A stretch of 64,000 nucleotides of DNA from an uncultured bacterium (GTDB lineage Bacteria > Patescibacteriota > Saccharimonadia > UBA4664 > SCTI01): positions 311,367 through 375,366 of the forward strand of contig CAVRJJ010000005.1 in the NCBI GenBank assembly GCA_963721685.1, written 5' to 3'. Below, piece by piece: positions 8,600-59,289 of this stretch. Position numbers and translations under genes: made by a program. The notes beneath the pieces were generated by a model. That model saw only the letters and a program-made list of their open reading frames with translations. It had not been told where the DNA came from and did no database searches. Numbering within the stretch: position 1 is the stretch's first letter; the number at the start of each line of letters is the position of its first letter.

Positions 8600-8618
8600 G
8601 ATTTTTGCATTAGACAGC

Positions 8619-9839: not shown

Positions 9840-9840
9840 C

Positions 9841-11796: not shown

Positions 11797-11934
11797 AACA
11801 GGTACATTGTAGCATAAGCGGGATTAAACAGCTGTCAAAGTTTAATCAATAATAAACAGCGCTATAAGAACAATTTAATAGGCTTTTGTCAGACTGGAAG
11901 TATATTACAAACAACCTAAGCGGAGATATACTTA

Positions 11935-24940: not shown

Positions 24941-26561
24941 GGCAACCTTTCCTTACTTAAAAGGGAAAGTGGTCTACCAGATTTATCCCCGCAGCTTTTA
25001 TGACGCTAATGGCGACGGCGTTGGTGATATCCCGGGTATTATTCAAAAGCTTGATTATTTGAATGATGGAACCCGCAATTCGCTTGGCATCAATATGATT
25101 TGGCTGTCTCCGTTTTACCCATCGCCCATGAATGACTTTGGCTATGACGTGGCAGATTATTGCGGGGTTGATCCATTGTTTGGCACATTGGACGATTTTC
25201 AGCAGCTTGTGGCTGAGGCGCATCGGCGTGATATTACGATTATGATCGACTTCGTGCCCAACCATACCTCCCATGAACATCCGTGGTTTCAAAACTCCCG
25301 CGCATCACGCGCCAGCGCTAAACGCGACTGGTATATTTGGCGCGATCCCAAGCCTGACGGTTCGCCGCCCAATAACTGGCTAAGTGTGTTTGGGGGATCG
25401 GCCTGGGAATATGATGCTGAAACAAAACAGTACTATATGCATAGCTTTTTGGCGCAGCAGCCGGATTTAAACTGGGAAAACCCGGACCTTCGCGCTGCTA
25501 TGATGCAGGCCATGCGGTTTTGGTTGGACTTAGGGGTTGATGGTATTCGGGTTGACGCGGTTGACTGGATGGCGAAAGACCAGCAGTTTCGCGACAATCC
25601 GCCGAACCTTCATTACTCGCCCGGGGTTGATGATCCCTACCACGCCTATGAGCGCAAATATAGTCAAAATGCCCCCCAACTCTATAGCTATTTGCGCGAA
25701 ATGGCAGAAGTTGTTAAAGACTATCCCAAAGGCTTTATGGTAACGGAGACCTACCCGGACCGCCGCAATATTGTTTCAGAATACTTAAAATTGTATGACC
25801 GCTATTTAGCGGAAGTGTCGGCTCCGTTTAACTTTGAAGGCATATTACTTCCCTGGACCGCGATATCGTTTAAGACGTTTATTGACCGCTTCCAAGCCGG
25901 ATTAAAGCCGAATCATATTCCCATATATGTGCTAGGCAACCATGATAACTCGCGGCTGGTAACGCGTATCGGCCAAGATGCTGCCCGCGCCGCCGCGCTC
26001 ATGCTTCTGACACTCCCGGGAATTGCATTTATTTATTACGGCGATGAATTGGGGATGACCGATGTGCACATTACTCCGGAAAAAGTTCGAGACCCCTTTG
26101 AAAAGCGGGTGCCCGGCATGGGTCTTGGGCGCGATCCTGAGCGTACGCCAATGCAATGGTCTGCTTTGCCTAACGCCGGTTTTTCCAAAGTTAAGCCTTG
26201 GCTTCCGGTGGGCTCCAACTTTAAAGAAGTTAACGCGGTGCAGGAGGGGAATGACCAACGTTCAATCTTATCGATGTACCGCAAGCTTATTCAGCTTCGG
26301 CGTCTTTCCCCCATTCTCCAGTACGGCAACTACGAATCGCTTGAAATTAATAACGCGTTCGTCTTTGGCTTTGCCCGTTCTTACAAGGGGCACGCATTGG
26401 CGGTTGTCCTTAACTTTTCTGACCAAGAAGTTGAATTTAATACCGCGCTTAAAGAAGGGGTTTTAATGTATACCACCCATGGCGATGCTGAAGCCCGTCC
26501 TATCCACCTTTCCAAACACGGGTTGCGTCCAAATGAAGGCCAAATTGTAACCTTGCTTTAA
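24930..26561 (+). CDS. GH13 alpha-glucosidase / oligo-1,6-glucosidase-like
   Basis: The start is reassigned to MADEATFPYLKGKVVYQIYPRSF.. in an ATGGCCGATGA overlap with the upstream stop. GH13 regions DFVPNHTS, GIRVDAV and YVLGNHD are present. Confidence 0.8.
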   Translation: MADEATFPYLKGKVVYQIYPRSFYDANGDGVGDIPGIIQKLDYLNDGTRNSLGINMIWLSPFYPSPMNDFGYDVADYCGVDPLFGTLDDFQQLVAEAHRRDITIMIDFVPNHTSHEHPWFQNSRASRASAKRDWYIWRDPKPDGSPPNNWLSVFGGSAWEYDAETKQYYMHSFLAQQPDLNWENPDLRAAMMQAMRFWLDLGVDGIRVDAVDWMAKDQQFRDNPPNLHYSPGVDDPYHAYERKYSQNAPQLYSYLREMAEVVKDYPKGFMVTETYPDRRNIVSEYLKLYDRYLAEVSAPFNFEGILLPWTAISFKTFIDRFQAGLKPNHIPIYVLGNHDNSRLVTRIGQDAARAAALMLLTLPGIAFIYYGDELGMTDVHITPEKVRDPFEKRVPGMGLGRDPERTPMQWSALPNAGFSKVKPWLPVGSNFKEVNAVQEGNDQRSILSMYRKLIQLRRLSPILQYGNYESLEINNAFVFGFARSYKGHALAVVLNFSDQEVEFNTALKEGVLMYTTHGDAEARPIHLSKHGLRPNEGQIVTLL

Positions 26562-30777: not shown

Positions 30778-31890
30778 CTATTCCACCACAATATAATCAT
30801 ATGCGTAGGGGGTACCCGCCAAAGGGGGTAGATTGCAGGAGATAGTAAAGTTCTGCGGTGTTCGAATGGCTGAAATTTCAATTTTGGCACTGTTGAAGCC
30901 AACCGGCGACAGGATAACCTTTGGAACGCTGCTAAAAGCCCGGCTAAAGGTGATAGTTGCCCATTGTCCATTTCCAGAGGGCCCGCAATTGGGTCCGCTG
31001 CCGGTAATAATTGAAATGGTTCCGGCAGTATCGTTGCCGCTGACAGTAGCGTTTCCGCCGCTTCCAATCCGGGTTGTAGCCGAAATGGAGGGGGCTGACC
31101 CGCCGCTGACAATATGACCGTTTATCGTTAACGATTGGCTTACCGTTATGGTTTGCACCGATATGGTGCCGACGGCGAAAGTGCCGCTTACGGATAAGCT
31201 TCCCCCAATCGTCGCGCTTCCCCTGACATTAATGTTCCCGGCGAAACTGCCGCTGCCGGTAACGTTTAACGGCCCGCCCACGTTGAGTTGGTTTCTGACA
31301 TCAACGGTACCCTGCAGGCTGGTGGTACCGTTAACGCTCAGGTTGGATCCGATGTTAAGGCTGTCGGCGGAAGCAGCACCGGTAATCCTGATTCCGGACG
31401 CGGCACTAATAAGTCCGTTGGCGGTTAAGCCATTTTCAAAAACCACCGGGTTTTTAAATACCGTGTCAGCTGAAATAGTTAGTGTTTGCTTGGGCTGCCC
31501 TAATCCAATTGCTGAAGCAAGGCTATTTATGGTTTCGTTGCTAAGGTTTTGAAAACTTATGCCAGCTTTTTCCAAAGCTTTTCCGGTTGGATCTTTCGGC
31601 TTTAAGAATAAATACACGATACCAGCGATTAACAAAATAAGAATGATGCTTCCGGGTATTAGGACCTTTGGACTGATCAGCCGCTTAGTCTTAATATGCT
31701 TGGGGGCTTCGTTTTCAACGGTATGGGGTTGATAGAGGTAAGCCTCCTTGTCATCTTGCAGTACCTTACCCTCAGACCCGGTTGGTTGCTGCGCTTTATC
31801 AGATTCACCGGCAGGCTTAGGAGCAGGGGTCGCCGGGCCCGGCTTCTTGCTGGTAGGGTCGTCTTTTTTGTCTGGGGCAGGAGTATCCAT
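30778..31890 (-). CDS. membrane-anchored beta-helix-repeat surface protein
   Basis: A Pro/Lys-rich N-terminus and one TM helix, then degenerate ~18-aa repeats (NLSVNGTTSLQGTVDVRN, QLNVGGPLNVTGSGSFAGNINVRGSATIGGSLSVSGT..). Confidence 0.45.
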   Translation of the reverse strand: MDTPAPDKKDDPTSKKPGPATPAPKPAGESDKAQQPTGSEGKVLQDDKEAYLYQPHTVENEAPKHIKTKRLISPKVLIPGSIILILLIAGIVYLFLKPKDPTGKALEKAGISFQNLSNETINSLASAIGLGQPKQTLTISADTVFKNPVVFENGLTANGLISAASGIRITGAASADSLNIGSNLSVNGTTSLQGTVDVRNQLNVGGPLNVTGSGSFAGNINVRGSATIGGSLSVSGTFAVGTISVQTITVSQSLTINGHIVSGGSAPSISATTRIGSGGNATVSGNDTAGTISIITGSGPNCGPSGNGQWATITFSRAFSSVPKVILSPVGFNSAKIEISAIRTPQNFTISCNLPPLAGTPYAYDYIVVE

Positions 31891-31933
31891 AATATACCTA
31901 TAATAATAACGCTTATGCTTTAGGGCTACAAGG

Positions 31934-32956
31934 TTGGCAGCACAAAAGCGTAAGAGGTATAATGAAAAGGTGAGTATGAAGTCATCACAACATTTTGTCC
32001 CGCACCACCATAGCGGGCGATTAATTCATCATCGCCACACCTCCTATGCCGGGTTGGTATTCGTAATTATGCTAAGCAGTATCATATTGATGGCTATTTC
32101 CTTTAATGCCCAAGCTTTTGAGCCCTCGGAGCTGCCTCCTCCGGTTGAAGAGGACCTTGATGTGCACGCGACGGTGCCCGGACCTGCTCCTAAAACCGCG
32201 CCAACTATCCAGACTCCGGCGAACGGCCAGGCTTTTACAAGCGTGCCCGTGTCGGTCCTTGGCAGTTGCCAAAAAGAAACGCTGGTTAAGATTTTTAAGA
32301 ATGACATTTTCGCCGGAGCGGCTTTCTGTGAAGGCAACGGGTCGTATAAAATGTCGATTGATTTGCTTGTTGGCTCCAACGCTTTGACCGCCCAAGCCTT
32401 TAACGCTCTCGATAAAGGAGGTCCGAGTTCTAATCCGGTTACGGTTAACTATAATTTGCCGGGACTGACGGCCGCCCAAGCCCCCGGCGCGTTTGAACCA
32501 GTAAAAACACCGGCTAACCAGCTACTTATTAATACGGTAAATTACCATAAGGGTTTGCGGGTAGGGGATGTGCTGGGGTGGCCGATTGAGCTGGTTGGGG
32601 GTAAGCCACCTTACGCCGTTAGTATTGGCTGGGGCGATGGCAAAACCGACCTTATTAGCCGGGGTCTGCCCGGCCGGTTCGATATAAAACATGTTTACGA
32701 CAAGGCGGGCCCAGGTTACCAAGGCAGCCAAACTATTGTTGTCAAAGCAACTGACTCTGAGGGCAGCACAGCCTATATTCAGCTTGTTACTATAGTGAAT
32801 AACGGCAATAAACAGGTTGCGGCTGCCAGCAGCCTGTTTTCGGGAAAGCTAGGCTTAGCGTGGCCGTTGGTATTGCTTGCCGTGTTGGTAGTGGTAAGTT
32901 TTTTCCTAGGGGAACGCCGTGAAAAACACATACTCCAGCAAAAGGGGCTCATATGA
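31934..32956 (+). CDS. membrane-anchored secreted protein with PKD-like domain
   Basis: An N-terminal TM/signal, ..SIGWGDGKTD.. (a WxDG PKD-like motif) and a C-terminal TM helix. The start could be the internal MKSSQHF. Confidence 0.45.
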   Translation: MAAQKRKRYNEKVSMKSSQHFVPHHHSGRLIHHRHTSYAGLVFVIMLSSIILMAISFNAQAFEPSELPPPVEEDLDVHATVPGPAPKTAPTIQTPANGQAFTSVPVSVLGSCQKETLVKIFKNDIFAGAAFCEGNGSYKMSIDLLVGSNALTAQAFNALDKGGPSSNPVTVNYNLPGLTAAQAPGAFEPVKTPANQLLINTVNYHKGLRVGDVLGWPIELVGGKPPYAVSIGWGDGKTDLISRGLPGRFDIKHVYDKAGPGYQGSQTIVVKATDSEGSTAYIQLVTIVNNGNKQVAAASSLFSGKLGLAWPLVLLAVLVVVSFFLGERREKHILQQKGLI

Positions 32957-33609
32957 CAACTATTTATAGCCCCTCCGTTGGCTCTTCTTTTGACGCTCCG
33001 CCAGCTGCGCGGGAACCTAAAAAGGGTAAAACCATTGCAAAGCGTGTAGTTTTCGGAGTAGCCGCGTTTGTCGCGGTACTCGGTGTGTTGGTTATGGCGT
33101 ACTTCATATTTTTGGGAAGCTCCAGCGTGCAGGGAAAAGTTAAGCCGGTTGAAGTTAGGGAGAACACTGCTATAAAAAGCCAACCAAAAAACCTCGCCTT
33201 ACGCGGACAGCACTTTAGTATGAGCTACGCCTCTACCTACGCCTCCCAAGATACCTCCGTTCGCACCACAAGCGCCCTAGAATCATATAGCTATGTTGCC
33301 TCAACGGTCTACGACAAGCGGATGGCAGTTGCTATTCAAAAGCTGCCTTCCGGAGGACTTTTGGAAGAGTCGTCTTATAAGATGCGGACCATTTACCCCG
33401 ATAAGTACGCCGAGCGTAAAATTAAAATCGGTGATGGTTCTGAGGCAAAAGTAATGACAAAAAAAACTGACGGCAGCAATTTTGAGGCGGTAATATTTGT
33501 AGAAAATAAAAATTTGCTTGCCACAATTGCTTTGGTTGTAACGGGTGGTAACGACGATCTCAATAAAGAAATAGACGCTATCGCTAAAAGCTTTAAGTGG
33601 GCGCCATAG
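32953..33609 (+). CDS. membrane-anchored hypothetical protein
   Basis: A 218-aa protein with an N-terminal TM helix, overlapping the upstream gene by 4 nt. Confidence 0.4.
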   Translation: MTTIYSPSVGSSFDAPPAAREPKKGKTIAKRVVFGVAAFVAVLGVLVMAYFIFLGSSSVQGKVKPVEVRENTAIKSQPKNLALRGQHFSMSYASTYASQDTSVRTTSALESYSYVASTVYDKRMAVAIQKLPSGGLLEESSYKMRTIYPDKYAERKIKIGDGSEAKVMTKKTDGSNFEAVIFVENKNLLATIALVVTGGNDDLNKEIDAIAKSFKWAP

Positions 33610-34670
33610 TGGGAGATATTGCCCAGCATTTTGTTCTTGGCGCGTGGATGATAATGGCGGCTCTACCTTCAAGCAGCAGCTATAAGCTCAACAATTATGG
33701 TTTTGGTTCCGGCGGCAGCGCCAACTCTTCTTCGGCCAGCTACCGGTTGAACGGCATCAGCGGAGAAGTAGGTGGGCCCCAAACGAGCAGCACGAGCTTT
33801 CAGCTTAATTCTGGAAATAACCAGACCCAGCAGGCACATGTACCGCTGGCTCCCGCCTTTGATAATCCCGCTAACTATTACAGTAAGTTGCATTTCACTA
33901 TTAACCCTTCAAGCAATCCGGCAGATACGAAGTTCGCGCTGGCCATTAGCTCGGATAACTTTGCCACCACCCAATACATCCAAAACGATGGCACAGTAGG
34001 GTTAAGCCTAGGTCTTGAGGATTACCAGACTTACGCCGATTGGGGAGGGCTCAGCGGTTCATTAGTTATAGGTCTAGCATCAAGCACTACTTACTATATA
34101 AAAGCCAAAGCCATTAGCGGAAGCTTTACGGAAACCGCCTTTGGGCCTGTCGCCAGTGCTACCACCTCGCCTCCCAACTTATTTTTCGACATTGATGTTG
34201 ACGCGACCGACACGGAAACCGCCTCACCTTATATTATGAACTTCGGCAATTTGCTCTCCGGTACTGTGATTGATGGGCCGCAAAAAGCTTGGTTTGATCT
34301 TGATACCAATGCTGATTATGGCGCGCGCATTTATATTTCGGCAAACACCGCGGGACTAACCAGCCAATCCGCTGGTAACACCATTTTATCCGCGACCGCT
34401 GATTTGAGCGCTACCAATGAAGGTTTTGGCGCCCAGAGCTCATCTGCCGGGCAAATTTCCGGAGGTCCCCTTACCGCCAATAGCCCTTATGATGGAACGG
34501 CAGAAAGCGTAGGAATAATTAACACGACGCTGCGCCAACTGTACGCTTCCCCCGGGCCTATTTCTTCAGGACGTTCGTCTGTGTTGTTCAAAGCAAAAGC
34601 TGGTGTTCAAACTCCCGCCGCCGACGATTATCAAAGTATTATTACCGCGATAGCAGCTGCCAGCTTTTAA
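33597..34670 (+). CDS. secreted Ser/Gly/Asn-rich hypothetical protein
   Basis: A 357-aa protein with a hydrophobic N-terminus and short SxSYxLN-type repeats. Confidence 0.4.
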   Translation: MGAIVGDIAQHFVLGAWMIMAALPSSSSYKLNNYGFGSGGSANSSSASYRLNGISGEVGGPQTSSTSFQLNSGNNQTQQAHVPLAPAFDNPANYYSKLHFTINPSSNPADTKFALAISSDNFATTQYIQNDGTVGLSLGLEDYQTYADWGGLSGSLVIGLASSTTYYIKAKAISGSFTETAFGPVASATTSPPNLFFDIDVDATDTETASPYIMNFGNLLSGTVIDGPQKAWFDLDTNADYGARIYISANTAGLTSQSAGNTILSATADLSATNEGFGAQSSSAGQISGGPLTANSPYDGTAESVGIINTTLRQLYASPGPISSGRSSVLFKAKAGVQTPAADDYQSIITAIAAASF

Positions 34671-34799
34671 TTATATGTAACGCGCTTCTATCTTATTAAA
34701 ATAAGCATAATCGGATTGACAGCATAAGCGTTATCATGGACAATGTTTGGTAAGTGCCGTGTGTGGCACGCAGGTCGGATATAATATAGGGTAAATTGA

Positions 34800-35831
34800 T
34801 TGAATAAGCTTTTGAAGCGCAGAATTTCTGTTGTAGCGGCTATCGCTATTCTCCTAGGTGTAATGGCGCCAATTACGTGGCCTGTCGCCAACGCCGCCTC
34901 ACTGTCTGATACTTATTTACGAATGAACCGCATGAAGGCCAGCCAGGCAACTGATTTTCGATTGGTGTTCAAGCCCTCTACCGTTGTCGCCGCCAATGGT
35001 AAAGTTAAGGTCACATTTCCTGCCGGTTTTACCGTAAACGCCACCCAGACTGCTAGCTCCGCCACCTGCGCGGCCGAGTCGGGAGCCACCGCCATGCCAG
35101 GTGTCTCGGCACCAAGCGGGAGTGGCCAGACTATTTCAATTACAAGTACTACCGGCCTAACGGGGGGTACGCTTTATTGTGTTGACCTCACTAGTGTGAC
35201 ATCCGTCACCAATCACGCTACGCCGGGGGGGTATGTGCCAACGGTTTTCACTACTACTTCTGGTGATGTGGCAATCGATACCAAAACCGTGGGCTTACGG
35301 GTAATCGCGGATGACCAGATTGTAATTACCGCGGTGGTCCCGCCAACTTTCGACTTTGCTTTAAGCGGTAATACCGACGCCTTTACCGCCTCGCTTGATC
35401 CAACAGCCGTTAGGACTACCACCGGCCGAACCGTAACCATCTCAACGAACGCCGCTAAGGGCTGGATTGCTTGGGTTAAAGACAGCAACCAAGGCCTCAC
35501 TTCAGTAAGCGCGTCAAACACCATAGCTACTACTGGCACCGTGGACGGCACTCCATCGACATTAGCGGCAGGAACGGAAGGGTATGTACTGGACGTAGAT
35601 TTAACGACTGATAGCGGCAATGGGACGCCGTCAATTGCCGCGGAATATAATGGAGTAGCCGCTAACTCCGGAGGTGCACTTAGCGGAACCTTTCAACCAT
35701 TTGCCTCTTCAACAGGAACAGCATTGGGAGATGTATTTACCCTTATTGAATACGCGGCAATTAATGGTGAGACGGAAGCTGGTGATGACTACACCGATAC
35801 TCTAACCATTGTGGGTGCCGGATACTTTTAG
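34800..35831 (+). CDS. WxL-domain-like cell-surface protein (paralog 1)
   Basis: The start codon is TTG, followed by a signal peptide. ..VVPPTFDFALSGNTD.., ..NAAKGWIAWVKDSN.. and the C-terminal ..DDYTDTLTIVGAGYF follow the three conserved blocks of the WxL domain (VPxFDFG / GWxLxV / TLTWxL). It is paralogous to 36067..37239. Confidence 0.55.
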   Translation: MNKLLKRRISVVAAIAILLGVMAPITWPVANAASLSDTYLRMNRMKASQATDFRLVFKPSTVVAANGKVKVTFPAGFTVNATQTASSATCAAESGATAMPGVSAPSGSGQTISITSTTGLTGGTLYCVDLTSVTSVTNHATPGGYVPTVFTTTSGDVAIDTKTVGLRVIADDQIVITAVVPPTFDFALSGNTDAFTASLDPTAVRTTTGRTVTISTNAAKGWIAWVKDSNQGLTSVSASNTIATTGTVDGTPSTLAAGTEGYVLDVDLTTDSGNGTPSIAAEYNGVAANSGGALSGTFQPFASSTGTALGDVFTLIEYAAINGETEAGDDYTDTLTIVGAGYF

Positions 35832-35860
35832 CGCTTAAATCTCTTCGGACCACCTAACTC

Positions 35861-35889
35861 AAGAACTATGCTGTAGGAGCATAGTTCTT
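35861..35889 (+). terminator. hairpin downstream of WxL-like paralog 1
   Basis: AAGAACTATGCT-GTAGG-AGCATAGTTCTT is a 12-bp perfect stem. Confidence 0.4.
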
Positions 35890-35906
35890 ATGCTATAATA
35901 AAGCTA

Positions 35907-35927
35907 CATCCAAGAGGTGGATGTTTT
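35907..35927 (+). terminator. Rho-independent terminator
   Basis: CATCCA-AGAGG-TGGATG followed by TTTT. Confidence 0.5.
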
Positions 35928-35974
35928 GACTGATAGCCCAGCAGGGAAATTGGTGATTTTGTGTTGGAAAAGTC

Positions 35975-36004
35975 TTGACATCACGCTTATGCTTCGTTTA
36001 TAGT
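35975..36004 (+). promoter_or_regulatory. sigma70-type promoter of WxL-like paralog 2
   Basis: A TTGACA -35 box, an 18-nt spacer and a TATAGT -10 box, about 60 nt upstream of the 36067 ATG. Confidence 0.5.
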
Positions 36005-36066
36005 GAACCGTAACAGCTTACAAAACAAAACCAAAAGCTGAAACATAAACAAAAAGAAAACACACT

Positions 36067-37239
36067 ATGCGAAGAAAATTCACGTTAAATCGATTCTCTC
36101 TAGTAGTATTAAGCATTACTGCGCTGCTCGTACAGCTTGTACCAGCCCATTTGATACCTAATGTGTACGCGCTGACAACAACCGACACCTACTTGCGCCT
36201 CGACCGCATGAAGTCTAGCACCGGTACCGCCCAGCCAACCACCTTCCGGCTTGTCTTTAAAACCCCAGCCACTGATACTGGGTCAGACGCAAAACTGCAG
36301 GTGCAGTTCTATCACCCAAACAACGTGGATCCAACCCAGGCCAATAATAACTTTACAATCAATAACACCCAGGCAGTCGCAACCACGAACTGCGCGACAG
36401 AAGCCAGCAACGAGCTTTCGGCCAGCGTGCTGGGAGTTCCCGGCACTCTAAGTGCGACTGGCGACAACACCAACGCCGGCGCTACCCGCAAAACCATTAC
36501 AATTACCGGTGTTACCAACATGACAACCTCGCAGTACTACTGTGTTGACTTTACTACCGCTAACGCTGTGACAAACCCGGTAAACCCTAACCTTTACATG
36601 GTGCAAATTAGAACCCTGACAGCTGCTGACGCTGTTCTTGACACGAAACTTGTCGGTGTCCGCATCGTGGACGCGACCGATGCCAACTACAAGTATGACC
36701 AGATTACCGTTACCGGAGTTGTTCCGCCATCATTCAGCTTCAACTTAAGCGGTAATACCGACGCCTTCATAGCCCTCCTGGACCCTGCCGCGGTTACCTA
36801 TACTAGTGGACGGACGGTTACCATCTCAACCAACGCCGCCAAAGGTTGGATAGTCTGGGTCAAAGACTCAGACCAAGGTCTCAAATCAGTATCTACGCCA
36901 AGCTCAGTAATTGCTTCAACATCAACGGGAGGTGGCGCGCTTAGTGACGATCTCGTCGACACAGCCGCACCAGGAACCGAAAACTTCCTTCTCGACGCGG
37001 ATATTACTACTGATGCAGCTGGCGGCGGGGCGGTTTCCATTGACCCTGATTACGACGGAGTAGCCGCGGGCGAAGGTGGCGCCCTGAGCAACACGGTCTT
37101 CCAGCAAATTGCCAAAGCTACCGGAACCGCCGACGGAGATGTAATTACCCTGAAAAGTTTAGCCACCATTACCGGATCAACTCCTGCCGGTGACGACTAT
37201 ACCGACATCCTCACCGTTATCGGCGCCGGCAACTTCTAA
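36067..37239 (+). CDS. WxL-domain-like cell-surface protein (paralog 2)
   Basis: A signal peptide, then ..VVPPSFSFNLSGNTD.., ..NAAKGWIVWVKDSD.. and the C-terminal ..DDYTDILTVIGAGNF. It is collinear with paralog 1. Confidence 0.55.
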   Translation: MRRKFTLNRFSLVVLSITALLVQLVPAHLIPNVYALTTTDTYLRLDRMKSSTGTAQPTTFRLVFKTPATDTGSDAKLQVQFYHPNNVDPTQANNNFTINNTQAVATTNCATEASNELSASVLGVPGTLSATGDNTNAGATRKTITITGVTNMTTSQYYCVDFTTANAVTNPVNPNLYMVQIRTLTAADAVLDTKLVGVRIVDATDANYKYDQITVTGVVPPSFSFNLSGNTDAFIALLDPAAVTYTSGRTVTISTNAAKGWIVWVKDSDQGLKSVSTPSSVIASTSTGGGALSDDLVDTAAPGTENFLLDADITTDAAGGGAVSIDPDYDGVAAGEGGALSNTVFQQIAKATGTADGDVITLKSLATITGSTPAGDDYTDILTVIGAGNF

Positions 37240-37302
37240 ACCGACCCAGCTATAAGCTCAATCCATTCTCAAACCCCTCATGCTTTGATATACTGACAGG
37301 TA

Positions 37303-38376
37303 ATGCAACGCAAAGTCCTGATGGAGCGAATACAGTGCATCGCCTTAGTTGTGATGATAAGTGTGGTAGGTCTTGCCCAGCCTCTGGCCGTTCACGCTGG
37401 GGAAGAAACCGGTCAATCGGGCGACTTGCACCTTATTACCTCGCCCCTCCCTATCCTTTTAACGGTTAAGCCGGGAACCACCGCTACTACCGACCTTCGC
37501 ATAAAAAACGCGAGCAACAGAACCGAGCGGTTGCGGGTGGATATGCTTAAATTTGGTGCTAGTGGAGAGGAGGGGCAACCGGCTCTGCAGGATCCCGAGC
37601 CCGGGGATGAGCAGTTCAAATGGGTAAGCTTCTCCCAGACTACATTCAACGCCGAGCCCAACGAATGGAAAAGTATAAAAATGACGATTAAGGTGCCAAA
37701 GACCGCGGCATTTGGGTATTACTACGCTATAACTTTTTCACGAGCGAATAAGGAGGAAGTGGCAAAGGACCAGCGGACTGCCTTGCGGGGAGCCACGGCG
37801 GTTTTAGTATTGCTGGAAGCCTCATCGCCAAATACCAAGCGCAAGGTTCAAATGATAGACTTTTCTACTAAGAAAGGTCTGTATGAGTACCTCCCCGCCA
37901 GTTTTAAAGCGCGCGTCCGTAATACCGGTAATATTCACACCGTTCCAGTTGGCAGCGTCTTTATCACCAAGGGCGATAAAGCCATAGGCTCGGTTAGCAT
38001 CAATAGTGAGCACGGAAATGTATTACCCAACAGTTATCGGATTTATGAAACCGAATGGAAGGACGGTTTCCCCCATTACGCTGAAAAGGTTGAAAATGGC
38101 CAGACCGTCGTAAATAAAAAAGGGCAACAGGAAAAACATCTTGTTTGGAATTTAAATGATATTGGCAAGATACGGTTTGGGAAATACACTGCCAGCGTTG
38201 TCATGGTTTATGATGATGGAAAACGTGACATTCCGCTGGAGGCGTCTGTTTCATTTTGGGTAATCCCTTGGCGCTTCTTGTTGGCGGTGGCTTTGCTGGT
38301 AACATTGATGTTAGCCGGAGCGTGGGCATTGGTGCGGGCGGCAAGACCTGGACGGCGCAACAAACGCCGGAGGTAG
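37303..38376 (+). CDS. DUF916/DUF3324-like cell-surface protein with C-terminal membrane anchor
   Basis: A signal peptide, a beta-rich ectodomain, then a C-terminal TM helix and the basic tail RAARPGRRNKRRR. This is the architecture of CscA-type partners of WxL proteins. Confidence 0.5.
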   Translation: MQRKVLMERIQCIALVVMISVVGLAQPLAVHAGEETGQSGDLHLITSPLPILLTVKPGTTATTDLRIKNASNRTERLRVDMLKFGASGEEGQPALQDPEPGDEQFKWVSFSQTTFNAEPNEWKSIKMTIKVPKTAAFGYYYAITFSRANKEEVAKDQRTALRGATAVLVLLEASSPNTKRKVQMIDFSTKKGLYEYLPASFKARVRNTGNIHTVPVGSVFITKGDKAIGSVSINSEHGNVLPNSYRIYETEWKDGFPHYAEKVENGQTVVNKKGQQEKHLVWNLNDIGKIRFGKYTASVVMVYDDGKRDIPLEASVSFWVIPWRFLLAVALLVTLMLAGAWALVRAARPGRRNKRRR

Positions 38377-38379
38377 AAA

Positions 38380-39354
38380 ATGAAATTTGTGACAATTGGT
38401 ATTAGTAGTCTACTAAGTACCGTCTTTTATCTTGCCTTGTTTGCTGGAGGGGCCCGAGCTGAAGGCGGCGGTGGGGTAGTAATTTCGCCTCCATTCCAGG
38501 AAGTAATTGTTGCTGATGCGCAGAGTACCACCCTTGGTATCACCCTAACAAACCGCACCAAAACGAACCAGTCAATAAGTGCCACCACAATTGATTTTGA
38601 GTCACTTGATGAGTCAGGCGGCGTCGCCTTTTTGGGTTCTGAAATTAACGACTTAGAACGAAAATACGGGCTGGCGAACTGGCTCAAACTTGATGCCGCG
38701 CAGACAACACTTCCGGCTGGCGGATCAAAAAAAATAATGGTCAGTTTGGAGAATCGGCCGGATCTATCGCCCGGAGGGCATTATGGCGCGGTGATTTTTA
38801 AAATTGAGGGACCACCAGCGGCGGGGAGTCCTAATAGCGTAGCTGTTAAACAGGTCTTGGCGTCGCTTATTTTTGCAAAGAAGCGGGGCGGTGAACGTTA
38901 CGATTTGAAGCTTGCGAGCATGCATCCGCCAAGTAAATGGACGGGCGGGAACCAAAAAGTGAAGTTAAGGTTTTATAACCCCGGCAATGTTCATCTGGTT
39001 CCCCGCGGCGTCTTAAGGTTAGAGGATTCAAGGGGGAAGCTAATAAGTAAAAGCGTGATTAATTCCGATTCGGGCATACTGTTACCCGAAGCCTACCGCC
39101 AATATTTAGTAACTCTAGCAGATGTGCCTATTTTAAAACCGGGGAAATATCGGCTCGAAGCCGAGTACCGTTATGATGGCATCGAGCAAACAATTACATT
39201 CACTAAACAAATCACCATATTTGATTGGCGCTTCGCCGTGTTTTTGGGGGCGTGGGCAAGCGTTATTATCATCCCGGTCATTGCATTAATAATTTTTTTG
39301 CTGCGTCGGCAACGGCGCAAGAAAAAGCGGCGCAAACATCACGCGGCATTTTGA
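38380..39354 (+). CDS. DUF916/DUF3324-like cell-surface protein with C-terminal membrane anchor (second copy)
   Basis: The same architecture, with a C-terminal TM helix and the tail LLRRQRRKKKRRKHHAAF. There is a 4-nt gap after the previous gene. Confidence 0.5.
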   Translation: MKFVTIGISSLLSTVFYLALFAGGARAEGGGGVVISPPFQEVIVADAQSTTLGITLTNRTKTNQSISATTIDFESLDESGGVAFLGSEINDLERKYGLANWLKLDAAQTTLPAGGSKKIMVSLENRPDLSPGGHYGAVIFKIEGPPAAGSPNSVAVKQVLASLIFAKKRGGERYDLKLASMHPPSKWTGGNQKVKLRFYNPGNVHLVPRGVLRLEDSRGKLISKSVINSDSGILLPEAYRQYLVTLADVPILKPGKYRLEAEYRYDGIEQTITFTKQITIFDWRFAVFLGAWASVIIIPVIALIIFLLRRQRRKKKRRKHHAAF

Positions 39355-39459
39355 TTCCATCAAAACCCCAAATTCATCTGTAAAGGTAGTTGATTACTTC
39401 TGTTAAAACGGTTATGCTGAAGAAGCATAAGTGTTATGTGAGGTCGAAAAAACGTTCCC

Positions 39460-42400
39460 ATGCTAGTTACCAGAATTTCGGGGAAGTTTAAGCGCACCAT
39501 AGGAAAGACTATGGGGGGCGTTCTTTTGGCTGTCTTAAGTCTTATTCCTCTTATGGCCGGTCCAACGGCTGAAGCCGCGGCCGGTACCAACCAGCAAATC
39601 AATTTCCAAGGAAAAGTGGTTAACCCAGACGGCACTAATATTCCAAACGGGACGTACAATATTGAATTTAAAATTTATCAGGACGGTGATGGGGCACTTG
39701 GCGGCGGGGATGAAACCCTAAAGTGGACGGAAAGCCGGCTGCGTGATAACAGCCAAGGGGTAACCATTACTGATGGTATTTTCCAGGTTAATTTAGGGTC
39801 AGTTAATAGCACCCTCGGCAGCGCGGTGGATTTCAACCAAGACACCTTGTGGCTTTCAATCAACCTAGGGAATACCAATGCTAGTTGTACTCCCTTTAGT
39901 GGGTGTGCTCCCGATGGCGAGATGGATCCTTTCATTCGCTTTACCTCGGCACCTTATGCCATGAACTCTGGCAAATTAAACGGTCTGACGAGCTCACAGT
40001 TTGTCCAGCTTGCCCAAGGAGTACAAACTGATAGTTCCACGGCTTCAAGCATTTTCCTCAACAAGACCGGAGCTACCGGAAACATCATCCAACTCCAAGA
40101 CGCCGGTACCGACGCCTTTGTGGTCGGTAACGCTGGTAACACCAGTATTAACACCAACTCCGCAACCGCTTTAACCGTCCAGAACGGCTCTAACAACGCC
40201 TTTGGCGTCGATACCTCTAACATCAAAGTAGCTATTGGACTGTCTACCGCCTCTGCTAGCTCAAGGCTAAGTGTCGCCGGACAAGGAGCCGCCAACGGCA
40301 TTACCTTAGGTGACGGGGCAACCGGATCAGCCAACCTGTATGTTAGCGCCAATGATACCCTTAAGACTGATGACGCGTTGATTGTCGGCACCATAGGTTC
40401 AGGCGGTACTAACTTGCTTTGTTACGATGGTTTCAACAAGCTAAGTACCTGCAGTAACGCCCCTGGAGCTGGAGCCTACCTAGCCAAGAACGCTACAGAC
40501 ACCTCATCCGCAGCCGTAACCGCAGCTAACTATCTCTACGGGTTCACTAACTCATCCAGCGCCATAGCTTCCGGAGTCCTTAATATAGACAACGGCACTA
40601 ATACCGGTAATGCCCTAAGAGTAACTACATCTGGCAACCCGGGAGCGGGCAACGCCTTAATCTTCGCCAGCAATAACCACGCCAGCCCAAGCGGCAACCT
40701 ATTAGATCTGCAGTCCGGCTCCAGCCCTACGAGTGTGTTTAGTGTGAGTGCTGACGGAGTCACAACGAGTGCCAGCCAAATAACATCCAATTACGGAGAC
40801 AGCGGGCAAATAATTCTCACAAGAAATAATCCTGGAGGAGAAGCAAGAATAGTCCTTGGTAATAGCGGACAAGTTTATATTACTCACACGAATGCCAACG
40901 AGCTATCAGTGACGGGGAGTCTTATAATAGAGGGTGCCAGTTCCAACCTCACCGTCCAAGGCACGGGCACCAGTAATTTTGTTGGCAACGTAGATATAGC
41001 CGGCACCCTTAAGGCCGGAACAAGCGATGCTTTCCAAGTTGGTGCTACAGGAGTAGTTAATTATGTAGCCGGTTCAACCGATACCGCCGCCGCGGTTTGT
41101 CGTAATGCTGCTGGCCAGCTGGCAGGCTGCAACACTACCGGAAACGGTGCCGCGTTCATCCAGGGCGGCAATGCCTTCGCTGCTACTGCTGTACTCGGAA
41201 CTAATGATGCTAATGGCCTGCAGATTGTCACCGGTAGTGGCGGACCAAATGGACGGGCATACTTTGATACCAGCAACAACTTATACCTTGGTAATGCTGG
41301 TACTACTGGATTAGCAGCCGCTCCGAACGCCTTTACTATCAGCGGGACCGGAAGCAGCGCGGCAGCCGGCGGAGCAGCCGGCGGCAACCTGACCATCAAA
41401 GCTGGGCTAGGCACCGCTACAGGCAGCGGCAGCGCCGGCGGAGTTCTAGCCTTAGCCGGTGGTGCGGCCCAAGGAGACGGAACCGTTAACCGCAACGGCG
41501 GCAACCTGACCTTAGATGGCGGCGCCAAAGTAGGTGCCGGCGGGACAATCGGCAATATTGTCCTGCAGGGTAGCGGGGGAAATGTGGGCATAGGAGCCAC
41601 TCCTACCACCACTGCCCGGCTTCAGGTGTCCGGGAACATAGAACTTATTAACGATAATGACTCATTGCTATTTGGTAATGATGTTACCACAAAATATAAC
41701 GGCACTGATCTAGTTACAACCCTACATAACACTGCCAATAGGTACGTAGTAAGCGGAACGGCTACTGGTGCTGTGTTGTCAGTCGCTAACTTCAACAATA
41801 CGGATACTAACTCAAGTGGTGGCGCCGGATTCCTGTTCTCGGCTGGCACTACCAGTGCGTTTATCGGAGGTGTGGTAAGTCAAAGAATTGATGCCGCAAA
41901 TAATTCAAGAACTGCCATAAGGGTATTATCAAATGGAGTTTTGAGCGGGTCAGACGCCGCGGCACCGTTCTACCTACAAGGCTCCAACTCAAACGGAATA
42001 ACGGCGTACTTTGGAGCCCGTACAGCTATTTTCAAAAATGACACCGATAGCCCCACCGCCCTCCAGGTCCAGAACGTCATTGGCACTAGCATCTTCAATG
42101 TAGATACAGCAAACTCTAAGATAGGTACAGCCAATTCCACGACTGCCAGCACAGCCGCACTTACAATTAAGTCAGGTGATGCCTCAATCGGCAGCAACTT
42201 AAGTTCAGGCAATGTCGTAATAGATTCCGGTACGGCTACCGGCTCAGGTACCGCCGGCAGCATTTCTATCGGTGCAGGCGCCTACGCCCACAACACTACT
42301 ATAGGGAATACTACTACCACTAGCTCTGTTATGCTGCAGGCGGGCAGTACCGGTGGAATTAATATCGGTACGGTTGGTTCCGCAACCACGGGCTCGACTA

Positions 42401-43320
42401 TACATATTGCCGACACCAGCAGCGGTACGGGTATCCAAAACATTACCATTGGTTCAAGTGCCAACTCCGCCAACTTCGTTACCTTGCAAGGTGGTGCAGG
42501 GGGTGGAGTGAATTTGCTGGCTAACGGCAGTAGCAATAACGGGGTAGTGGTTAGAACCACAACATCTAATTCTTCTCAAGCCTTTCAGATCCAGAACTCT
42601 GCCAGTAGCAGTATCTTCACAGCTGATACCAGTACAACTCGTATAACTATCGGCGGGGCGAGCGGCACTCTAAGCAATCGAAACCTGGAAGTTGTTAGTG
42701 TAGACGTAACTTCAGTAATACGGATAGGAGATGCTACAAATGGAGTTAGTTATAACGATGCTGCCACGGGAGTAACTGGCAAGCTTCGTAAATATGGAAC
42801 TGCTAGAGAATCACGAACAATTACCTTGGCACCGGAGTATGCGGGGGTAGTGTTAACGGGAGACGGTACCAACAACACCGGTACAATGACTTCAGACTAT
42901 TGCTCTGGTACTAGTCGCAGAAGTATAAATACCAGCATTTGTGCAGCTAATGATGAATTCAATTATTACTCGTGGACGGCCCAGGCAACTAATGACTATG
43001 ACGTCTGGATAAGGTGGCAAGTTCCTAGCGACTTTAGTTCATGGACAGCCAGTAATCCTATTCAATTCTATGGTTGGAGAAGTAGTAGTTCGGCCAATAA
43101 TGTTGTAACACTCACTATGTATAACGCTTCAGGGTCCGTATGCGGAACAGCAACAAGCATTACTAATACTACTACGTGGACAGCTACCAACTATTCATCT
43201 TCCGGTTGTAGTCCAGCAGCGGGGGAAATAATGACTATTCGCATCACCTTGTCTGTTGGCGTAAATAATGAATTTGTTAGAGTTAGTAATATATCCTTAA
43301 ATTATTTGAGTGCGTACTAA
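39460..43320 (+). CDS. giant secreted beta-helical adhesin-like protein (1286 aa)
   Basis: A signal peptide, then about 1200 aa that are extremely Gly/Thr/Ser/Asn/Ala-rich with degenerate repeats (..GNAGNTSINTNSATALTVQNGSNNAFGVDTSN..). The antisense ORFs are Pro/Ala-rich artefacts. Confidence 0.6.
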   Translation: MLVTRISGKFKRTIGKTMGGVLLAVLSLIPLMAGPTAEAAAGTNQQINFQGKVVNPDGTNIPNGTYNIEFKIYQDGDGALGGGDETLKWTESRLRDNSQGVTITDGIFQVNLGSVNSTLGSAVDFNQDTLWLSINLGNTNASCTPFSGCAPDGEMDPFIRFTSAPYAMNSGKLNGLTSSQFVQLAQGVQTDSSTASSIFLNKTGATGNIIQLQDAGTDAFVVGNAGNTSINTNSATALTVQNGSNNAFGVDTSNIKVAIGLSTASASSRLSVAGQGAANGITLGDGATGSANLYVSANDTLKTDDALIVGTIGSGGTNLLCYDGFNKLSTCSNAPGAGAYLAKNATDTSSAAVTAANYLYGFTNSSSAIASGVLNIDNGTNTGNALRVTTSGNPGAGNALIFASNNHASPSGNLLDLQSGSSPTSVFSVSADGVTTSASQITSNYGDSGQIILTRNNPGGEARIVLGNSGQVYITHTNANELSVTGSLIIEGASSNLTVQGTGTSNFVGNVDIAGTLKAGTSDAFQVGATGVVNYVAGSTDTAAAVCRNAAGQLAGCNTTGNGAAFIQGGNAFAATAVLGTNDANGLQIVTGSGGPNGRAYFDTSNNLYLGNAGTTGLAAAPNAFTISGTGSSAAAGGAAGGNLTIKAGLGTATGSGSAGGVLALAGGAAQGDGTVNRNGGNLTLDGGAKVGAGGTIGNIVLQGSGGNVGIGATPTTTARLQVSGNIELINDNDSLLFGNDVTTKYNGTDLVTTLHNTANRYVVSGTATGAVLSVANFNNTDTNSSGGAGFLFSAGTTSAFIGGVVSQRIDAANNSRTAIRVLSNGVLSGSDAAAPFYLQGSNSNGITAYFGARTAIFKNDTDSPTALQVQNVIGTSIFNVDTANSKIGTANSTTASTAALTIKSGDASIGSNLSSGNVVIDSGTATGSGTAGSISIGAGAYAHNTTIGNTTTTSSVMLQAGSTGGINIGTVGSATTGSTIHIADTSSGTGIQNITIGSSANSANFVTLQGGAGGGVNLLANGSSNNGVVVRTTTSNSSQAFQIQNSASSSIFTADTSTTRITIGGASGTLSNRNLEVVSVDVTSVIRIGDATNGVSYNDAATGVTGKLRKYGTARESRTITLAPEYAGVVLTGDGTNNTGTMTSDYCSGTSRRSINTSICAANDEFNYYSWTAQATNDYDVWIRWQVPSDFSSWTASNPIQFYGWRSSSSANNVVTLTMYNASGSVCGTATSITNTTTWTATNYSSSGCSPAAGEIMTIRITLSVGVNNEFVRVSNISLNYLSAY

Positions 43321-59223: not shown

Positions 59224-59289
59224 CGCTCCAAAACCTGTCTGGCAATTATTCTTTCTCGGTGACATAATGATTTAAGGAGCATAAGCATT

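What the first reader, a model, noticed from the sequence alone, without database searches (positions are those of the whole stretch)
34800..39354. Csc-type surface complex locus: two WxL-like paralogs plus two DUF916-like C-terminally anchored proteins
The paralogs 34800..35831 and 36067..37239 share three collinear blocks that mirror the conserved WxL-domain blocks of Firmicutes: VVPP(T/S)F(D/S)F.LSGNTD, NAAKGWI.WVKDS and the C-terminal DDYTD.LT(I/V).GAG.F. They differ extensively elsewhere. They are followed by two proteins with a signal peptide, a beta-rich ectodomain and a single C-terminal TM helix plus a poly-basic tail, which is the CscA/DUF916-DUF3324 architecture. In Lactobacillales such clusters form non-covalently attached surface complexes that bind plant and host glycans. 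Finding a divergent version here suggests an uncharacterised cell-surface or attachment system, possibly used for host or epibiont contact. Each paralog has its own promoter and terminator, which is consistent with differential expression or phase variation.
Basis: partly seen in the sequence, partly recalled or inferred. Interest (0 to 1): 0.6.

Follow-up and report, generated by a model that had tools for sequence, protein, structure and literature searches.

The report
CPR Pam-type pilus operon, not WxL
The four genes are real, but they are best read as part of a recently described 'Pam' pilus operon of ultrasmall CPR bacteria (two filament subunits plus two membrane-anchored assembly chaperones), not a lactobacillus-style WxL surface complex; only the chaperones resemble their WxL-cluster counterparts, and only distantly.

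Summary
All four ORFs exist exactly as described. P1 and P2 are full-length paralogs (47% identity), and the three shared sequence blocks are real.

The WxL reading fails every test: 0 of 51 family members hit Pfam WxL, none has a dual W-x-L motif, and profile-profile probability against genuine WxL proteins is 0.3-1.9%.

The locus is instead a Pam-type pilus operon of a Saccharimonadia (CPR) bacterium, as described in a 2026 preprint:
- The genes immediately upstream match NCBIfam PamR (E 8e-86) and the N-terminus of PamT.
- P1 models confidently as signal peptide, β-sandwich, highly conserved linker and C-terminal Ig-like domain.
- C1 and C2 are PapD-like two-domain proteins with a C-terminal membrane helix.
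- The gene order recurs in about 17 CPR loci.

The 'DUF916-like' call for C1/C2 is partly right. They share the architecture and fold of WxLIP, with weak but consistent sequence signal, so the relationship is distant and falls short of family membership. That link is not made in the papers I could search.

Verdict: a new member of a recently described kind, of moderate interest.

The parts
30778..31890 (-). g370: divergently transcribed 370-aa protein with one internal hydrophobic segment. It is a conserved neighbour of the operon and may be the preprint's 'tail fibre-like' neighbour.
   Evidence: Homologs sit in the same divergent position in L007 and L019. Weak H-type lectin hit and weak tail-fibre PHROG hits. 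Hydrophobic segment at residues 70-100.
31934..32956 (+). PamR-like base or anchor protein: tandem Ig/FnIII-like ectodomain, C-terminal TM helix, and a linker-mimic strand (VHATVPGP) after the signal sequence. The true start is probably the ATG at 31976.
   Evidence: NCBIfam NF058578 CPR_pilus_PamR, E 8.2e-86, 287.5 bits against a cutoff of 300. 356 homologs. Family consensus V.AVVPGP.P. TM segments.
32953..33609 (+). X218: 218-aa protein with an N-terminal membrane anchor. It is a conserved operon member of unknown role.
   Evidence: Hydrophobic segment at residues 27-60. Homologs lie between PamR and the PamT-like gene in L002 and L007. No family hits.
33597..34670 (+). PamT-like candidate tip subunit. 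It has a pilin-type C-terminal domain but no hydrophobic donor linker, plus an extra N-terminal region.
   Evidence: NCBIfam NF058579 PamT matches the N-terminus only (E 2.8e-10, 40 bits against a cutoff of 240). HHalign of residues 201-369 against the pilin C-terminal domain gives 98.6%, E 1e-15. 46-55% identical in 16 loci.
34716..34744 (+). Promoter-like site upstream of P1 (TTGACA-17-GACAAT), with the GCATAAGCGTTAT motif in its spacer.
   Evidence: Conserved in L001.
34800..35831 (+). P1: Pam-type pilin. Signal peptide 1-32, β-sandwich N-terminal domain 33-169 (Cys90/Cys127), conserved donor-strand linker 170-184 (DDQIVITAVVPP), Ig-like C-terminal domain 185-343.
   Evidence: AF2 model with pLDDT 92.9. 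At least 814 homologs, nearly all unnamed, from CPR MAGs. Conservation by region. 1083 clusters at 50% identity.
35861..35924 (+). Two stem-loops after P1: a 12-bp perfect stem and a 7-bp stem followed by UUUUGA. They are a candidate attenuator, terminator or mRNA stabiliser.
   Evidence: Fold z = -3.12, with 0 of 200 shuffles folding as well. Sequence. The second stem and adjacent sequence are conserved in L001.
35975..36004 (+). Promoter-like site upstream of P2 (TTGACA-18-TATAGT, 11 of 12 matches), with the same motif in reverse orientation in its spacer.
   Evidence: Conserved in L001.
36067..37239 (+). P2: second Pam-type pilin and paralog of P1, with a larger N-terminal domain. Linker is DQITVTGVVPP.
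   Evidence: 47% identity to P1, E 2e-94. Per-domain identity. Linker motif.
37303..38376 (+). C1: membrane-anchored PapD-like chaperone candidate (PamC/PamD type): signal peptide, two Ig-like domains, TM helix 314-347 and an RRNKRRR tail.
   Evidence: HHalign against the C2 family 99.8%. Hydropathy. Weak Pfam hits to fn3_5, ASH/Cep192 and DUF916. One or two copies in 16 loci.
38380..39354 (+). C2: second membrane-anchored PapD-like chaperone candidate: signal peptide 1-27, β-sandwiches 33-168 and 177-280, TM helix 283-312 and a poly-basic tail.
39460..43320 (+). BIG: secreted 1286-aa Gly/Thr/Ser/Asn-rich protein that always follows the chaperones. Its role is unknown; it may be a fibre or adhesin.
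   Evidence: Its N-terminal region is conserved downstream of C2, or of the PamT-like gene, in 14 loci. Signal peptide. No family hits.

Best explanation
The four genes are the core of a Pam-type pilus operon (about 31.9-43.3 kb of the window) in a Saccharimonadia/CPR bacterium. The proposed mechanism is inferred by analogy with the Ca. Mycosynbacter amalyticus system and from the anatomy found here.

1. P1 and P2 are exported by Sec.
2. Their C-terminal Ig-like domain is incomplete. It is first capped by a strand from the membrane-anchored PapD-like chaperones C1 and C2.
3. The conserved linker of the next subunit (DDQIVITAVVPP) then displaces the chaperone by donor-strand exchange. This builds a linear filament that grows from the membrane, with no usher.
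4. The PamT-like protein has a pilin C-terminal domain but no hydrophobic linker, so it sits at the tip.
5. PamR carries a linker-mimic strand (V.AVVPGP) and a C-terminal TM helix. It plugs the last subunit and anchors the filament.
6. The two pilin paralogs differ mainly in the exposed N-terminal domain and probably form distinct stretches of one filament. The hairpins after P1 and the separate promoter-like site before P2 would set their stoichiometry.
7. The likely function is long-range contact with the host cell.

Shown here: gene content, homology to PamR, predicted folds, conservation pattern and synteny. Inferred: polymerisation, order of assembly and function.
For: Genes and context:
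- PamR (E 8.2e-86) and the PamT N-terminus (E 2.8e-10) match the two genes just upstream.
- A preprint (10.64898/2026.03.03.709456) describes exactly this parts list: two-domain pilins, PapD/FimC-like chaperones with a C-terminal TM helix, a tip PamT, an anchoring PamR, and restriction to CPR.

Pilins:
- The P1 AF2 model (pLDDT 92.9) has a roughly 9-10-strand N-terminal β-sandwich, a linker with no secondary structure in the monomer, and a C-terminal β-domain.
- The linker is the most conserved region (0.80, against 0.72 for the C-terminal domain, 0.56 for the N-terminal domain and 0.33 for the signal peptide). The preprint reports the same pattern for PamA and PamB (Fig. S5 legend).
- The PamT-like C-terminal domain is homologous to the pilin C-terminal domain starting just after the linker (98.6%).
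- The PamR family has a conserved V.AVVPGP strand that mimics the pilin linker VTAVVPP.

Chaperones:
- C1 and C2 have C-terminal TM helices and basic tails.

Distribution:
- The order PamR-X218-PamT-like-pilin(s)-C1-C2-BIG, or a permuted form, recurs in 17 CPR loci.
- Named homologs are nearly all Saccharimonadia or Patescibacteria.
- The pilin family spans 1083 clusters at 50% identity.
Against: - No direct comparison with PamA, PamB, PamC, PamD or PamE was possible. The structures 25PZ and 25QA are not in the PDB copies, and the M. amalyticus sequences could not be retrieved.
- PamR scores just below NCBIfam's equivalog cutoff (287.5 against 300). PamT matches only over about 70 N-terminal residues (40 bits against 240).
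- No NCBIfam model hits any pilin or chaperone here or in L019.
- P1 and P2 have one cysteine pair, whereas the preprint reports two for PamA and three for PamB.
- No ATP synthase genes were found among the window's larger ORFs, although one is adjacent in L019.
- Donor-strand exchange was not modelled because no multimer prediction was available.
- P1's PDB neighbours are only generic Ig-like domains.
Confidence: 0.8

Rival explanations
1. Csc/WxL-type complex. P1 and P2 are WxL-like wall-binding proteins that stay bound to C1/C2 (WxLIP-like) as a non-filamentous surface complex binding host or plant glycans.
For: - The cluster composition is similar: two small subunits plus TM-anchored two-Ig proteins (PMC10599100).
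Against: - None of 51 family members hits Pfam WxL, and none has a dual W-x-L motif.
- HHalign gives 0.3-1.9%, the same as unrelated controls.
- DUF3324 is never hit, and the NQIDKxxxYFDLK motif is absent from C1/C2.
- The conserved inter-domain linker, the PamR linker mimic and a linker-less tip subunit all fit a polymer.
- PamR and PamT matches flank the genes.
- The M. amalyticus homologous system forms filaments solved by cryo-EM.
Confidence: 0.07
2. A surface array or adhesin with no donor-strand polymerisation. P1 and P2 are secreted monomeric Ig-like adhesins, or S-layer or hydrophobin-like coat proteins (their N-terminal domain resembles BslA/YweA). C1 and C2 are unrelated membrane-anchored Ig proteins.
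For: - All PDB neighbours are generic Ig-like domains.
- Polymerisation was not shown here.
Against: - The most conserved segment is an inter-domain linker with alternating hydrophobic residues that has no secondary structure in the monomer model. That is hard to explain for a monomer.
- The same motif recurs at the mature N-terminus of PamR.
- The PapD-like chaperones are strictly syntenic.
- The related system has been shown experimentally to form filaments.
Confidence: 0.08
3. Sortase-assembled Gram-positive-type pilus, or a classical chaperone-usher pilus.
For: - P1 has weak structural similarity to Gram-positive pilin domains and to CsuA/B.
- C2 resembles chaperone-usher chaperones.
Against: - No LPXTG-like sorting signal or YPKN pilin motif occurs in any operon protein.
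- No sortase or usher domain is hit in any operon protein.
- The chaperones are TM-anchored rather than periplasmic.
- The organism belongs to CPR, whose cultivated members are described with a single cell membrane.
Confidence: 0.02

Closest known systems
Pam pilus operon of Ca. Mycosynbacter amalyticus (Troman et al., bioRxiv 10.64898/2026.03.03.709456; PamA, PamB, PamC, PamD, PamE, PamT, PamR)
   Same: - A PamR homolog and a protein matching the PamT N-terminus are present.
- The pilins are Sec-exported two-domain proteins: β-sandwich N-terminal domain, conserved linker, Ig-like C-terminal domain.
- There are two PapD-like chaperones with a C-terminal TM helix.
- Conservation peaks at the linker and the C-terminal domain.
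- The distribution is CPR/Saccharimonadia.
- A large secreted protein and a weakly tail-fibre-like protein are neighbours.
   Different: - Gene order differs: here PamR-X218-PamT-like-P1-P2-C1-C2-BIG, whereas accession numbering suggests PamC..PamB..PamR..PamD-PamE..PamA..PamT in M. amalyticus.
- Both pilins are small (34.7 and 40.6 kDa precursors, against 55.3 and 38.7 kDa) and 47% identical to each other.
- They have one Cys pair rather than two or three.
- The PamT-like protein is 357 aa with an extra N-terminal region, against a 241-position model.
- No separate PamE candidate and no adjacent ATP synthase were found.
- Direct homology of P1/P2 to PamA/PamB was not tested.
Csc / WxL clusters of Lactobacillales and Listeria (WxL proteins plus WxLIP = DUF916-DUF3324-TM; Siezen 2006, PMC1534035; Hassan 2023, PMC10599100)
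   Same: - C1 and C2 have the WxLIP architecture, size, fold and basic tail, with weak sequence signal to DUF916.
- The clusters combine small secreted β-rich subunits with TM-anchored two-Ig proteins.
- WxLIP is predicted to donate a strand that completes an incomplete WxL β-sandwich. Mechanistically that resembles chaperone donor-strand complementation.
   Different: - There is no WxL domain or W-x-L motif in P1/P2.
- DUF3324 and the NQIDK motif are not detected.
- The subunits here have two domains and a conserved donor linker.
- PamR and PamT-like partners are present.
- The host is CPR, not Firmicutes.
- The expected product is a filament, not a wall-bound complex.
Chaperone-usher pili of Gram-negative bacteria (Pap, Fim, CFA/I, Csu)
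   Same: - Assembly would follow Ig-like subunit and donor-strand logic.
- There is a tip subunit without a donor strand.
   Different: - There is no outer-membrane usher, and the chaperones are tethered by a TM helix.
- The donor strand is an inter-domain linker rather than an N-terminal extension.
- Each subunit has an extra N-terminal domain.
- There is no detectable sequence similarity.

Membership tests
Pam pilus operon (CPR) | PamR (RbmA-like protein with a C-terminal TM helix and an N-terminal plug strand) encoded in the operon | tested here: met
   NF058578 hit at E 8.2e-86 over 292 of 297 profile positions. The score of 287.5 bits is just under the equivalog cutoff of 300. C-terminal TM helix. 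Conserved V.AVVPGP strand.
Pam pilus operon (CPR) | PamT tip subunit: a truncated Ig-like domain without a donor linker | tested here: inconclusive
   NF058579 matches only profile positions 14-83 (40 bits against a cutoff of 240). The C-terminal domain is homologous to the pilin C-terminal domain (98.6%). The linker position reads VASATTSPP, which is not hydrophobic. The protein has about 120 extra residues.
Pam pilus operon (CPR) | Major pilins with a nine-strand β-sandwich N-terminal domain, a single linker strand and an open Ig-like C-terminal domain; the linker and C-terminal domain are the most conserved parts | tested here: met
   AF2 model of P1 with pLDDT 92.9. Regional conservation: linker 0.80, C-terminal domain 0.72, N-terminal domain 0.56.
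Pam pilus operon (CPR) | Sequence or structural homology of the pilins to PamA/PamB (QHN43273.1, QHN43269.1; PDB 25PZ, 25QA) | not testable with these tools
   These entries are absent from both PDB copies. The supplement holds no sequences.
Pam pilus operon (CPR) | PapD/FimC-like chaperones carrying a C-terminal TM helix (PamC, PamD) | tested here: met
   [not shown]
Pam pilus operon (CPR) | Filament formed by donor-strand exchange | not testable with these tools
Pam pilus operon (CPR) | [quoted passage not shown] | tested here: inconclusive
   No ATP synthase was found among the window's larger ORFs. ATP synthase epsilon is adjacent in the related locus L019. g370 has weak tail-fibre signals, and BIG is conserved.
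Csc / WxL cluster | At least two proteins with a WxL domain (PF13731), within four genes of a WxLIP | tested here: not met
   No PF13731 hit for P1 or P2 at E <= 1, nor for any of 51 family members at E <= 0.1. HHalign against 21 genuine WxL proteins gives 0.3-1.9%.
Csc / WxL cluster | Dual Trp-x-Leu motif in the C-terminal domain | tested here: not met
   P1 and P2 contain no W-x-L motif. None of 51 family members has two or more, against 18 of 21 genuine small WxL proteins.
Csc / WxL cluster | WxLIP: DUF916 (PGBD) plus DUF3324 (HBD) plus TM helix | tested here: inconclusive
   For:
- PF06030 is hit below the gathering score by C1 and C2 (16-17 bits against 27.3), by 32 of 56 C2-family members (best E 1.2e-6) and by 3 of 20 C1-family members.

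Against or weakening:
- DUF3324 is never hit.
- Full-length HHalign gives 96-97%, but only about 21% (E 1e-3) once signal peptide and TM helix are trimmed.
- The NQIDKxxxYFDLK motif is absent.
Chaperone-usher pili | Outer-membrane usher and a soluble periplasmic chaperone | tested here: not met
   No usher domain is hit in any operon protein. The chaperone candidates are TM-anchored.
Sortase-dependent pili | LPXTG sorting signal, pilin motif and a sortase gene | tested here: not met
   No LPXTG-like or YPKN motif occurs in the operon proteins. P1 and P2 end in GAG(Y/N)F with no TM helix. No sortase hit.

The most novel reading that the evidence does not exclude
The Csc/WxL clusters of Firmicutes and the Pam pili of CPR bacteria may be two branches of one ancient, usher-less system of single-membrane bacteria. 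In this reading a membrane-anchored PapD-like chaperone (WxLIP or PamC/PamD) completes, by strand donation, an incomplete Ig-like subunit (a WxL domain or a Pam pilin C-terminal domain).

If so, small WxL proteins would correspond to subunits that consist only of the pilin-type C-terminal domain. Large WxL proteins would correspond to adhesins that carry that domain at their C-terminus. WxL proteins might then form short donor-strand polymers rather than simply binding peptidoglycan.

The chaperone half of this link has weak but consistent support here. The subunit half rests only on a collinear, statistically insignificant three-block resemblance. Neither the Pam preprint nor any paper in the searched library makes the connection.
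Probability: 0.25. Interest if true: 0.7.

Novelty: new member of a known kind. Interest (0 to 1): 0.42.

Why it matters
CPR/Patescibacteria are a very large, mostly uncultured part of bacterial diversity, and their cultivated members live attached to host cells. How they reach and hold their hosts is largely unknown.

This locus shows that the newly described Pam pilus parts list exists in a compact, differently ordered form in another Saccharimonadia lineage: two closely related pilins, two anchored chaperones, a larger tip-like subunit, PamR and a giant secreted protein. The same form recurs in many CPR MAGs. That helps define the conserved core of the system and gives sequence signatures for annotating it: the linker DDQIV(V/I)TAVVPP, the PamR mimic V.AVVPGP, and the C-terminal DYTDTLTV.GAG.F.

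The possible kinship between Pam chaperones and WxLIP proteins, if confirmed, would give a concrete and testable mechanism (strand complementation) for the long-enigmatic WxL/Csc clusters of lactobacilli, enterococci and Listeria.

Tried and rejected
- **PDB sequence searches.** Searches with P1, P2, the P1-family profile and the C2-family profile found nothing informative.
- **AFDB50 fold search.** The library was unavailable, so WxL-domain models could not be compared structurally.
- **NCBIfam.** It recognises only PamR and the PamT N-terminus, not the pilins or chaperones, here or in L019.
- **Reaching the M. amalyticus operon.** I tried PamR homologs and a 1.19 Mb contig. The contig is a different organism, and the preprint's supplement has accessions but no sequences.
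- **Full-length HHalign of chaperones against WxLIP.** It first gave 96-97%. I discounted this after trimming signal peptides and TM helices, which cut it to about 21%, E 1e-3. A PamR-vs-WxLIP control had given a spurious 62% on the TM and basic tail alone.
- **Invertible-switch or phase-variation reading.** I rejected it for the 14-nt inverted repeat flanking P1. The arms are copies of a motif that recurs at other promoters.
- **Sortase pili and classical chaperone-usher pili.** Rejected.
- **PHROGs.** No hit for the giant protein.

Full report
**Observation**

P1 and P2 are full-length paralogs (47% identity, E 2e-94), and the three quoted blocks are real. Divergence is concentrated in the N-terminal half. 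Identity is 41% there, with 29 extra residues in P2, against 60% in the linker and 65% in the C-terminal domain.

C1 and C2 are distant paralogs (23% identity; profile-profile 99.8%). Both have an N-terminal signal peptide, a C-terminal hydrophobic helix and a poly-basic tail, and both are basic (pI about 10). P1 and P2 are acidic (pI about 4.5), have a signal peptide and have no membrane anchor.

Pfam gives no WxL (PF13731) hit for P1 or P2 even at E <= 1, nor for any of 51 family members. None of the 51 has two W-x-L motifs.

To go beyond HMM-versus-sequence, I fished genuine Firmicute WxL clusters out of metagenomes using the DUF916 motif NQIDKxxxYFDLK (PMC10599100). From these I extracted 12 non-redundant WxLIP and 21 small WxL proteins.
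- HHalign of the P1/P2 family against WxL gives 0.9-1.9% probability, the same as cross-family negative controls.

For C1 and C2 the picture is different.
- Both hit PF06030 (DUF916/WxLIP_PGBD) weakly (E 0.005-0.01, below the gathering score).
- 32 of 56 C2-family members hit it (best E 1.2e-6), but only 3 of 20 C1-family members do. The C1 family leans towards fn3_5 and PapD-like/ASH Ig families.
- DUF3324 is never hit.
- Full-length HHalign against WxLIP gave 96-97%. After trimming signal peptides and TM helices this falls to about 21% (E 1e-3). The trimmed alignment is still collinear over about 200 columns across both domains, is seen for both C1 and C2, and sits well above the reversed-sequence and unrelated controls at 0.1-0.7%.

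C1 and C2 are therefore WxLIP-like in architecture and fold, and probably distant relatives, but they are not members of that Pfam family.

**What the locus is**

NCBIfam (release 20.0, June 2026) matches two genes just upstream:
- 31934-32956 matches CPR_pilus_PamR (E 8.2e-86, 287.5 bits against a cutoff of 300).
- The N-terminus of 33597-34670 matches CPR_pilus_PamT (E 2.8e-10).

These models derive from a 2026 preprint on Ca. Mycosynbacter amalyticus (10.64898/2026.03.03.709456). Cryo-EM there showed filaments made of two previously uncharacterised pilins, PamA and PamB. Each has a nine-strand β-sandwich N-terminal domain, a linker strand that is donated to the next subunit, and a truncated Ig-like C-terminal domain. 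The operon also encodes:
- PapD/FimC-like chaperones with a C-terminal TM helix (PamC, PamD);
- a linker-less tip subunit (PamT);
- an RbmA-like protein with an N-terminal plug strand and a TM anchor (PamR).

The family was reported to be exclusive to CPR.

The window matches this parts list feature by feature.
- **Pilin fold.** The P1 AF2 model (pLDDT 92.9) has a signal helix, a 9-10-strand β-sandwich (33-169), a segment at 170-183 with no secondary structure in the monomer, and a β-rich C-terminal domain (184-343).
- **Conservation.** That linker (DDQIVITAVVPP, with alternating hydrophobic residues) is the most conserved part of the family: 0.80, against 0.72 for the C-terminal domain, 0.56 for the N-terminal domain and 0.33 for the signal peptide (invariant D172 and Q173). 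The preprint reports the same pattern for PamA and PamB.
- **Tip subunit.** The C-terminal domain of the PamT-like protein is homologous to the pilin C-terminal domain, starting just after the linker (98.6%, E 1e-15). At the linker position it reads VASATTSPP, as expected for a tip subunit that accepts a strand but does not donate one.
- **Anchor.** The PamR family has a conserved V.AVVPGP.P strand right after its signal sequence (VHATVPGP in the window). It mimics the pilin linker VTAVVPP, as expected for a terminator or anchor that plugs the last subunit.

**Synteny and distribution**

The order PamR-X218-PamT-like-pilin(s)-C1(x1-2)-C2-giant protein is found in 8 related loci. A permuted form (pilin-C1-C2...PamT-like-giant protein) is found in 7 more, and most of the remaining loci are fragments of the same cluster.

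Where sources name the homologs, they are Saccharimonadia, Saccharibacteria or other Patescibacteria, apart from a few names that look like mis-binned MAGs. The pilin family spans 1083 clusters at 50% identity with E <= 1e-3, and 296 with E <= 1e-30. L019 has ATP synthase epsilon next to the cluster, as the preprint describes. No ATP synthase was found among this window's larger ORFs.

**Mechanism (inferred)**

1. P1 and P2 are secreted by Sec.
2. The membrane-tethered chaperones C1 and C2 cap the incomplete C-terminal domain.
3. The linker of the next subunit displaces the chaperone by donor-strand exchange at the membrane, without an usher.
4. The PamT-like protein sits at the tip and PamR at the base.
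5. The paralogs differ mostly in the exposed N-terminal domain and may form distinct stretches of one filament, as the preprint reports for PamA and PamB.
6. Two stable hairpins after P1 (z = -3.1) and a near-consensus promoter-like site before P2 (TTGACA-18-TATAGT) would allow different dosage of P1, and of P2 together with the chaperones. The P2-C1 gap has no structure.

**Limits**

- I could not compare P1 and P2 directly with PamA and PamB.
- PamR is just under its curated cutoff, and PamT matches only partially.
- P1 and P2 have one Cys pair rather than two or three.
- Polymerisation itself was not modelled.

**Comparison with known systems, and novelty**

The locus is a new, differently arranged member of the Pam pilus kind, which was first described in 2026. 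It is not a Csc/WxL cluster, a sortase pilus (no LPXTG motif) or a classical chaperone-usher pilus (no usher, anchored chaperones).

The one point that goes beyond the literature I could search is the link between Pam-type chaperones and WxLIP. The preprint never mentions WxL or DUF916, and no held paper connects WxLIP with PapD-type chaperones. Yet the WxLIP paper itself predicts that a WxLIP strand completes an incomplete WxL β-sandwich, which is chaperone-style strand complementation. This raises the possibility that Csc/WxL clusters and Pam pili share an origin and a mechanism. I put that at about 25%, because the subunit half has no statistical support.

**A regulatory motif**

The 13-nt motif GCATAAGCGTKAT occurs 7 times in the window against 0.28 expected. 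Copies lie:
- in the g370/PamR divergent intergenic region;
- inside the spacers of the P1 and P2 promoter-like sites;
- 22 nt before the giant protein's start codon;
- next to the type IV pilus PilB operon.

It is conserved at the two homologous promoter positions in the closest relative, L001, and is absent from the more distant loci. This explains the inverted repeat that flanks P1 as a shared regulatory element rather than an invertible switch.

Noticed in passing
window 31906-31918(-), 34722-34734(+), 35980-35992(-), 39425-39437(+), 11812-11824(+), 59279-59291(+), 1394-1406(+); L001 987-999(+), 2254-2266(-): A 13-nt motif, GCATAAGCGTKAT, occurs 7 times against 0.28 expected by chance (0 of 100 shuffles reach 7). 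It is almost always intergenic. It lies within or next to the promoter-like sites of g370/PamR, P1, P2 and the giant protein, and next to the type IV pilus PilB operon. It is conserved at the homologous promoter positions in the closest relative only. It is a candidate shared operator or promoter element for surface-appendage genes.
   Followed up: partly
window 3240-11796 (- strand): A type IV pilus gene cluster lies about 23 kb upstream of the pam-type operon: PilM (4321-5379), a prepilin-type N-methylation-motif protein (6856-7533), PilC/T2SSF (8619-9980) and PilB/T2SSE (9841-11796). This genome therefore encodes two unrelated filament systems close together.
   Followed up: partly
[not shown]
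   Followed up: no
proteins P0387, P0390, P0393, P0413: Some representatives of the pilin family are 784-1641 aa long and carry the entire pilin module (N-terminal domain, linker, C-terminal domain) at their C-terminus. They may be adhesin-pilin fusions, formally analogous to 'large WxL' proteins.
   Followed up: no
window 31934-32060 (PamR N-terminus): The database gene call for PamR (P0121, 288 aa) starts inside the hydrophobic signal segment. The family alignment shows a conserved His-rich motif, H.H.GRL.HHRHTSY, upstream of that segment, so the true start is further upstream (probably the ATG at 31976). The signal region carries an unusual conserved cytoplasmic motif.
   Followed up: partly
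window 39460-43320 (+) and 43518-45458 (+): A 1286-aa secreted protein rich in Gly, Thr, Ser and Asn always follows the chaperones. It has 10 Cys and no hit in Pfam, NCBIfam or PHROGs. Its N-terminal roughly 170-residue region is conserved (about 40-64% identity) across the related loci. A 646-aa secreted Cys-containing protein follows it, in a stretch where G+C drops to 38-43%.
   Followed up: partly
window 23324-26561, 52288-56662, 60839-62470: The window holds many glycogen- or starch-related genes: three alpha-amylase-family proteins, and GT4, GH57 and GH15 enzymes. This fits a host-dependent, sugar-scavenging lifestyle.
   Followed up: no
L004, L005, L010-L012, L014, L016 (record titles): Several loci with this CPR-type operon come from MAGs labelled Burkholderiaceae, Pseudomonadales or Limnocylindria. 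These are most likely binning or labelling errors rather than occurrences outside CPR.
   Followed up: no
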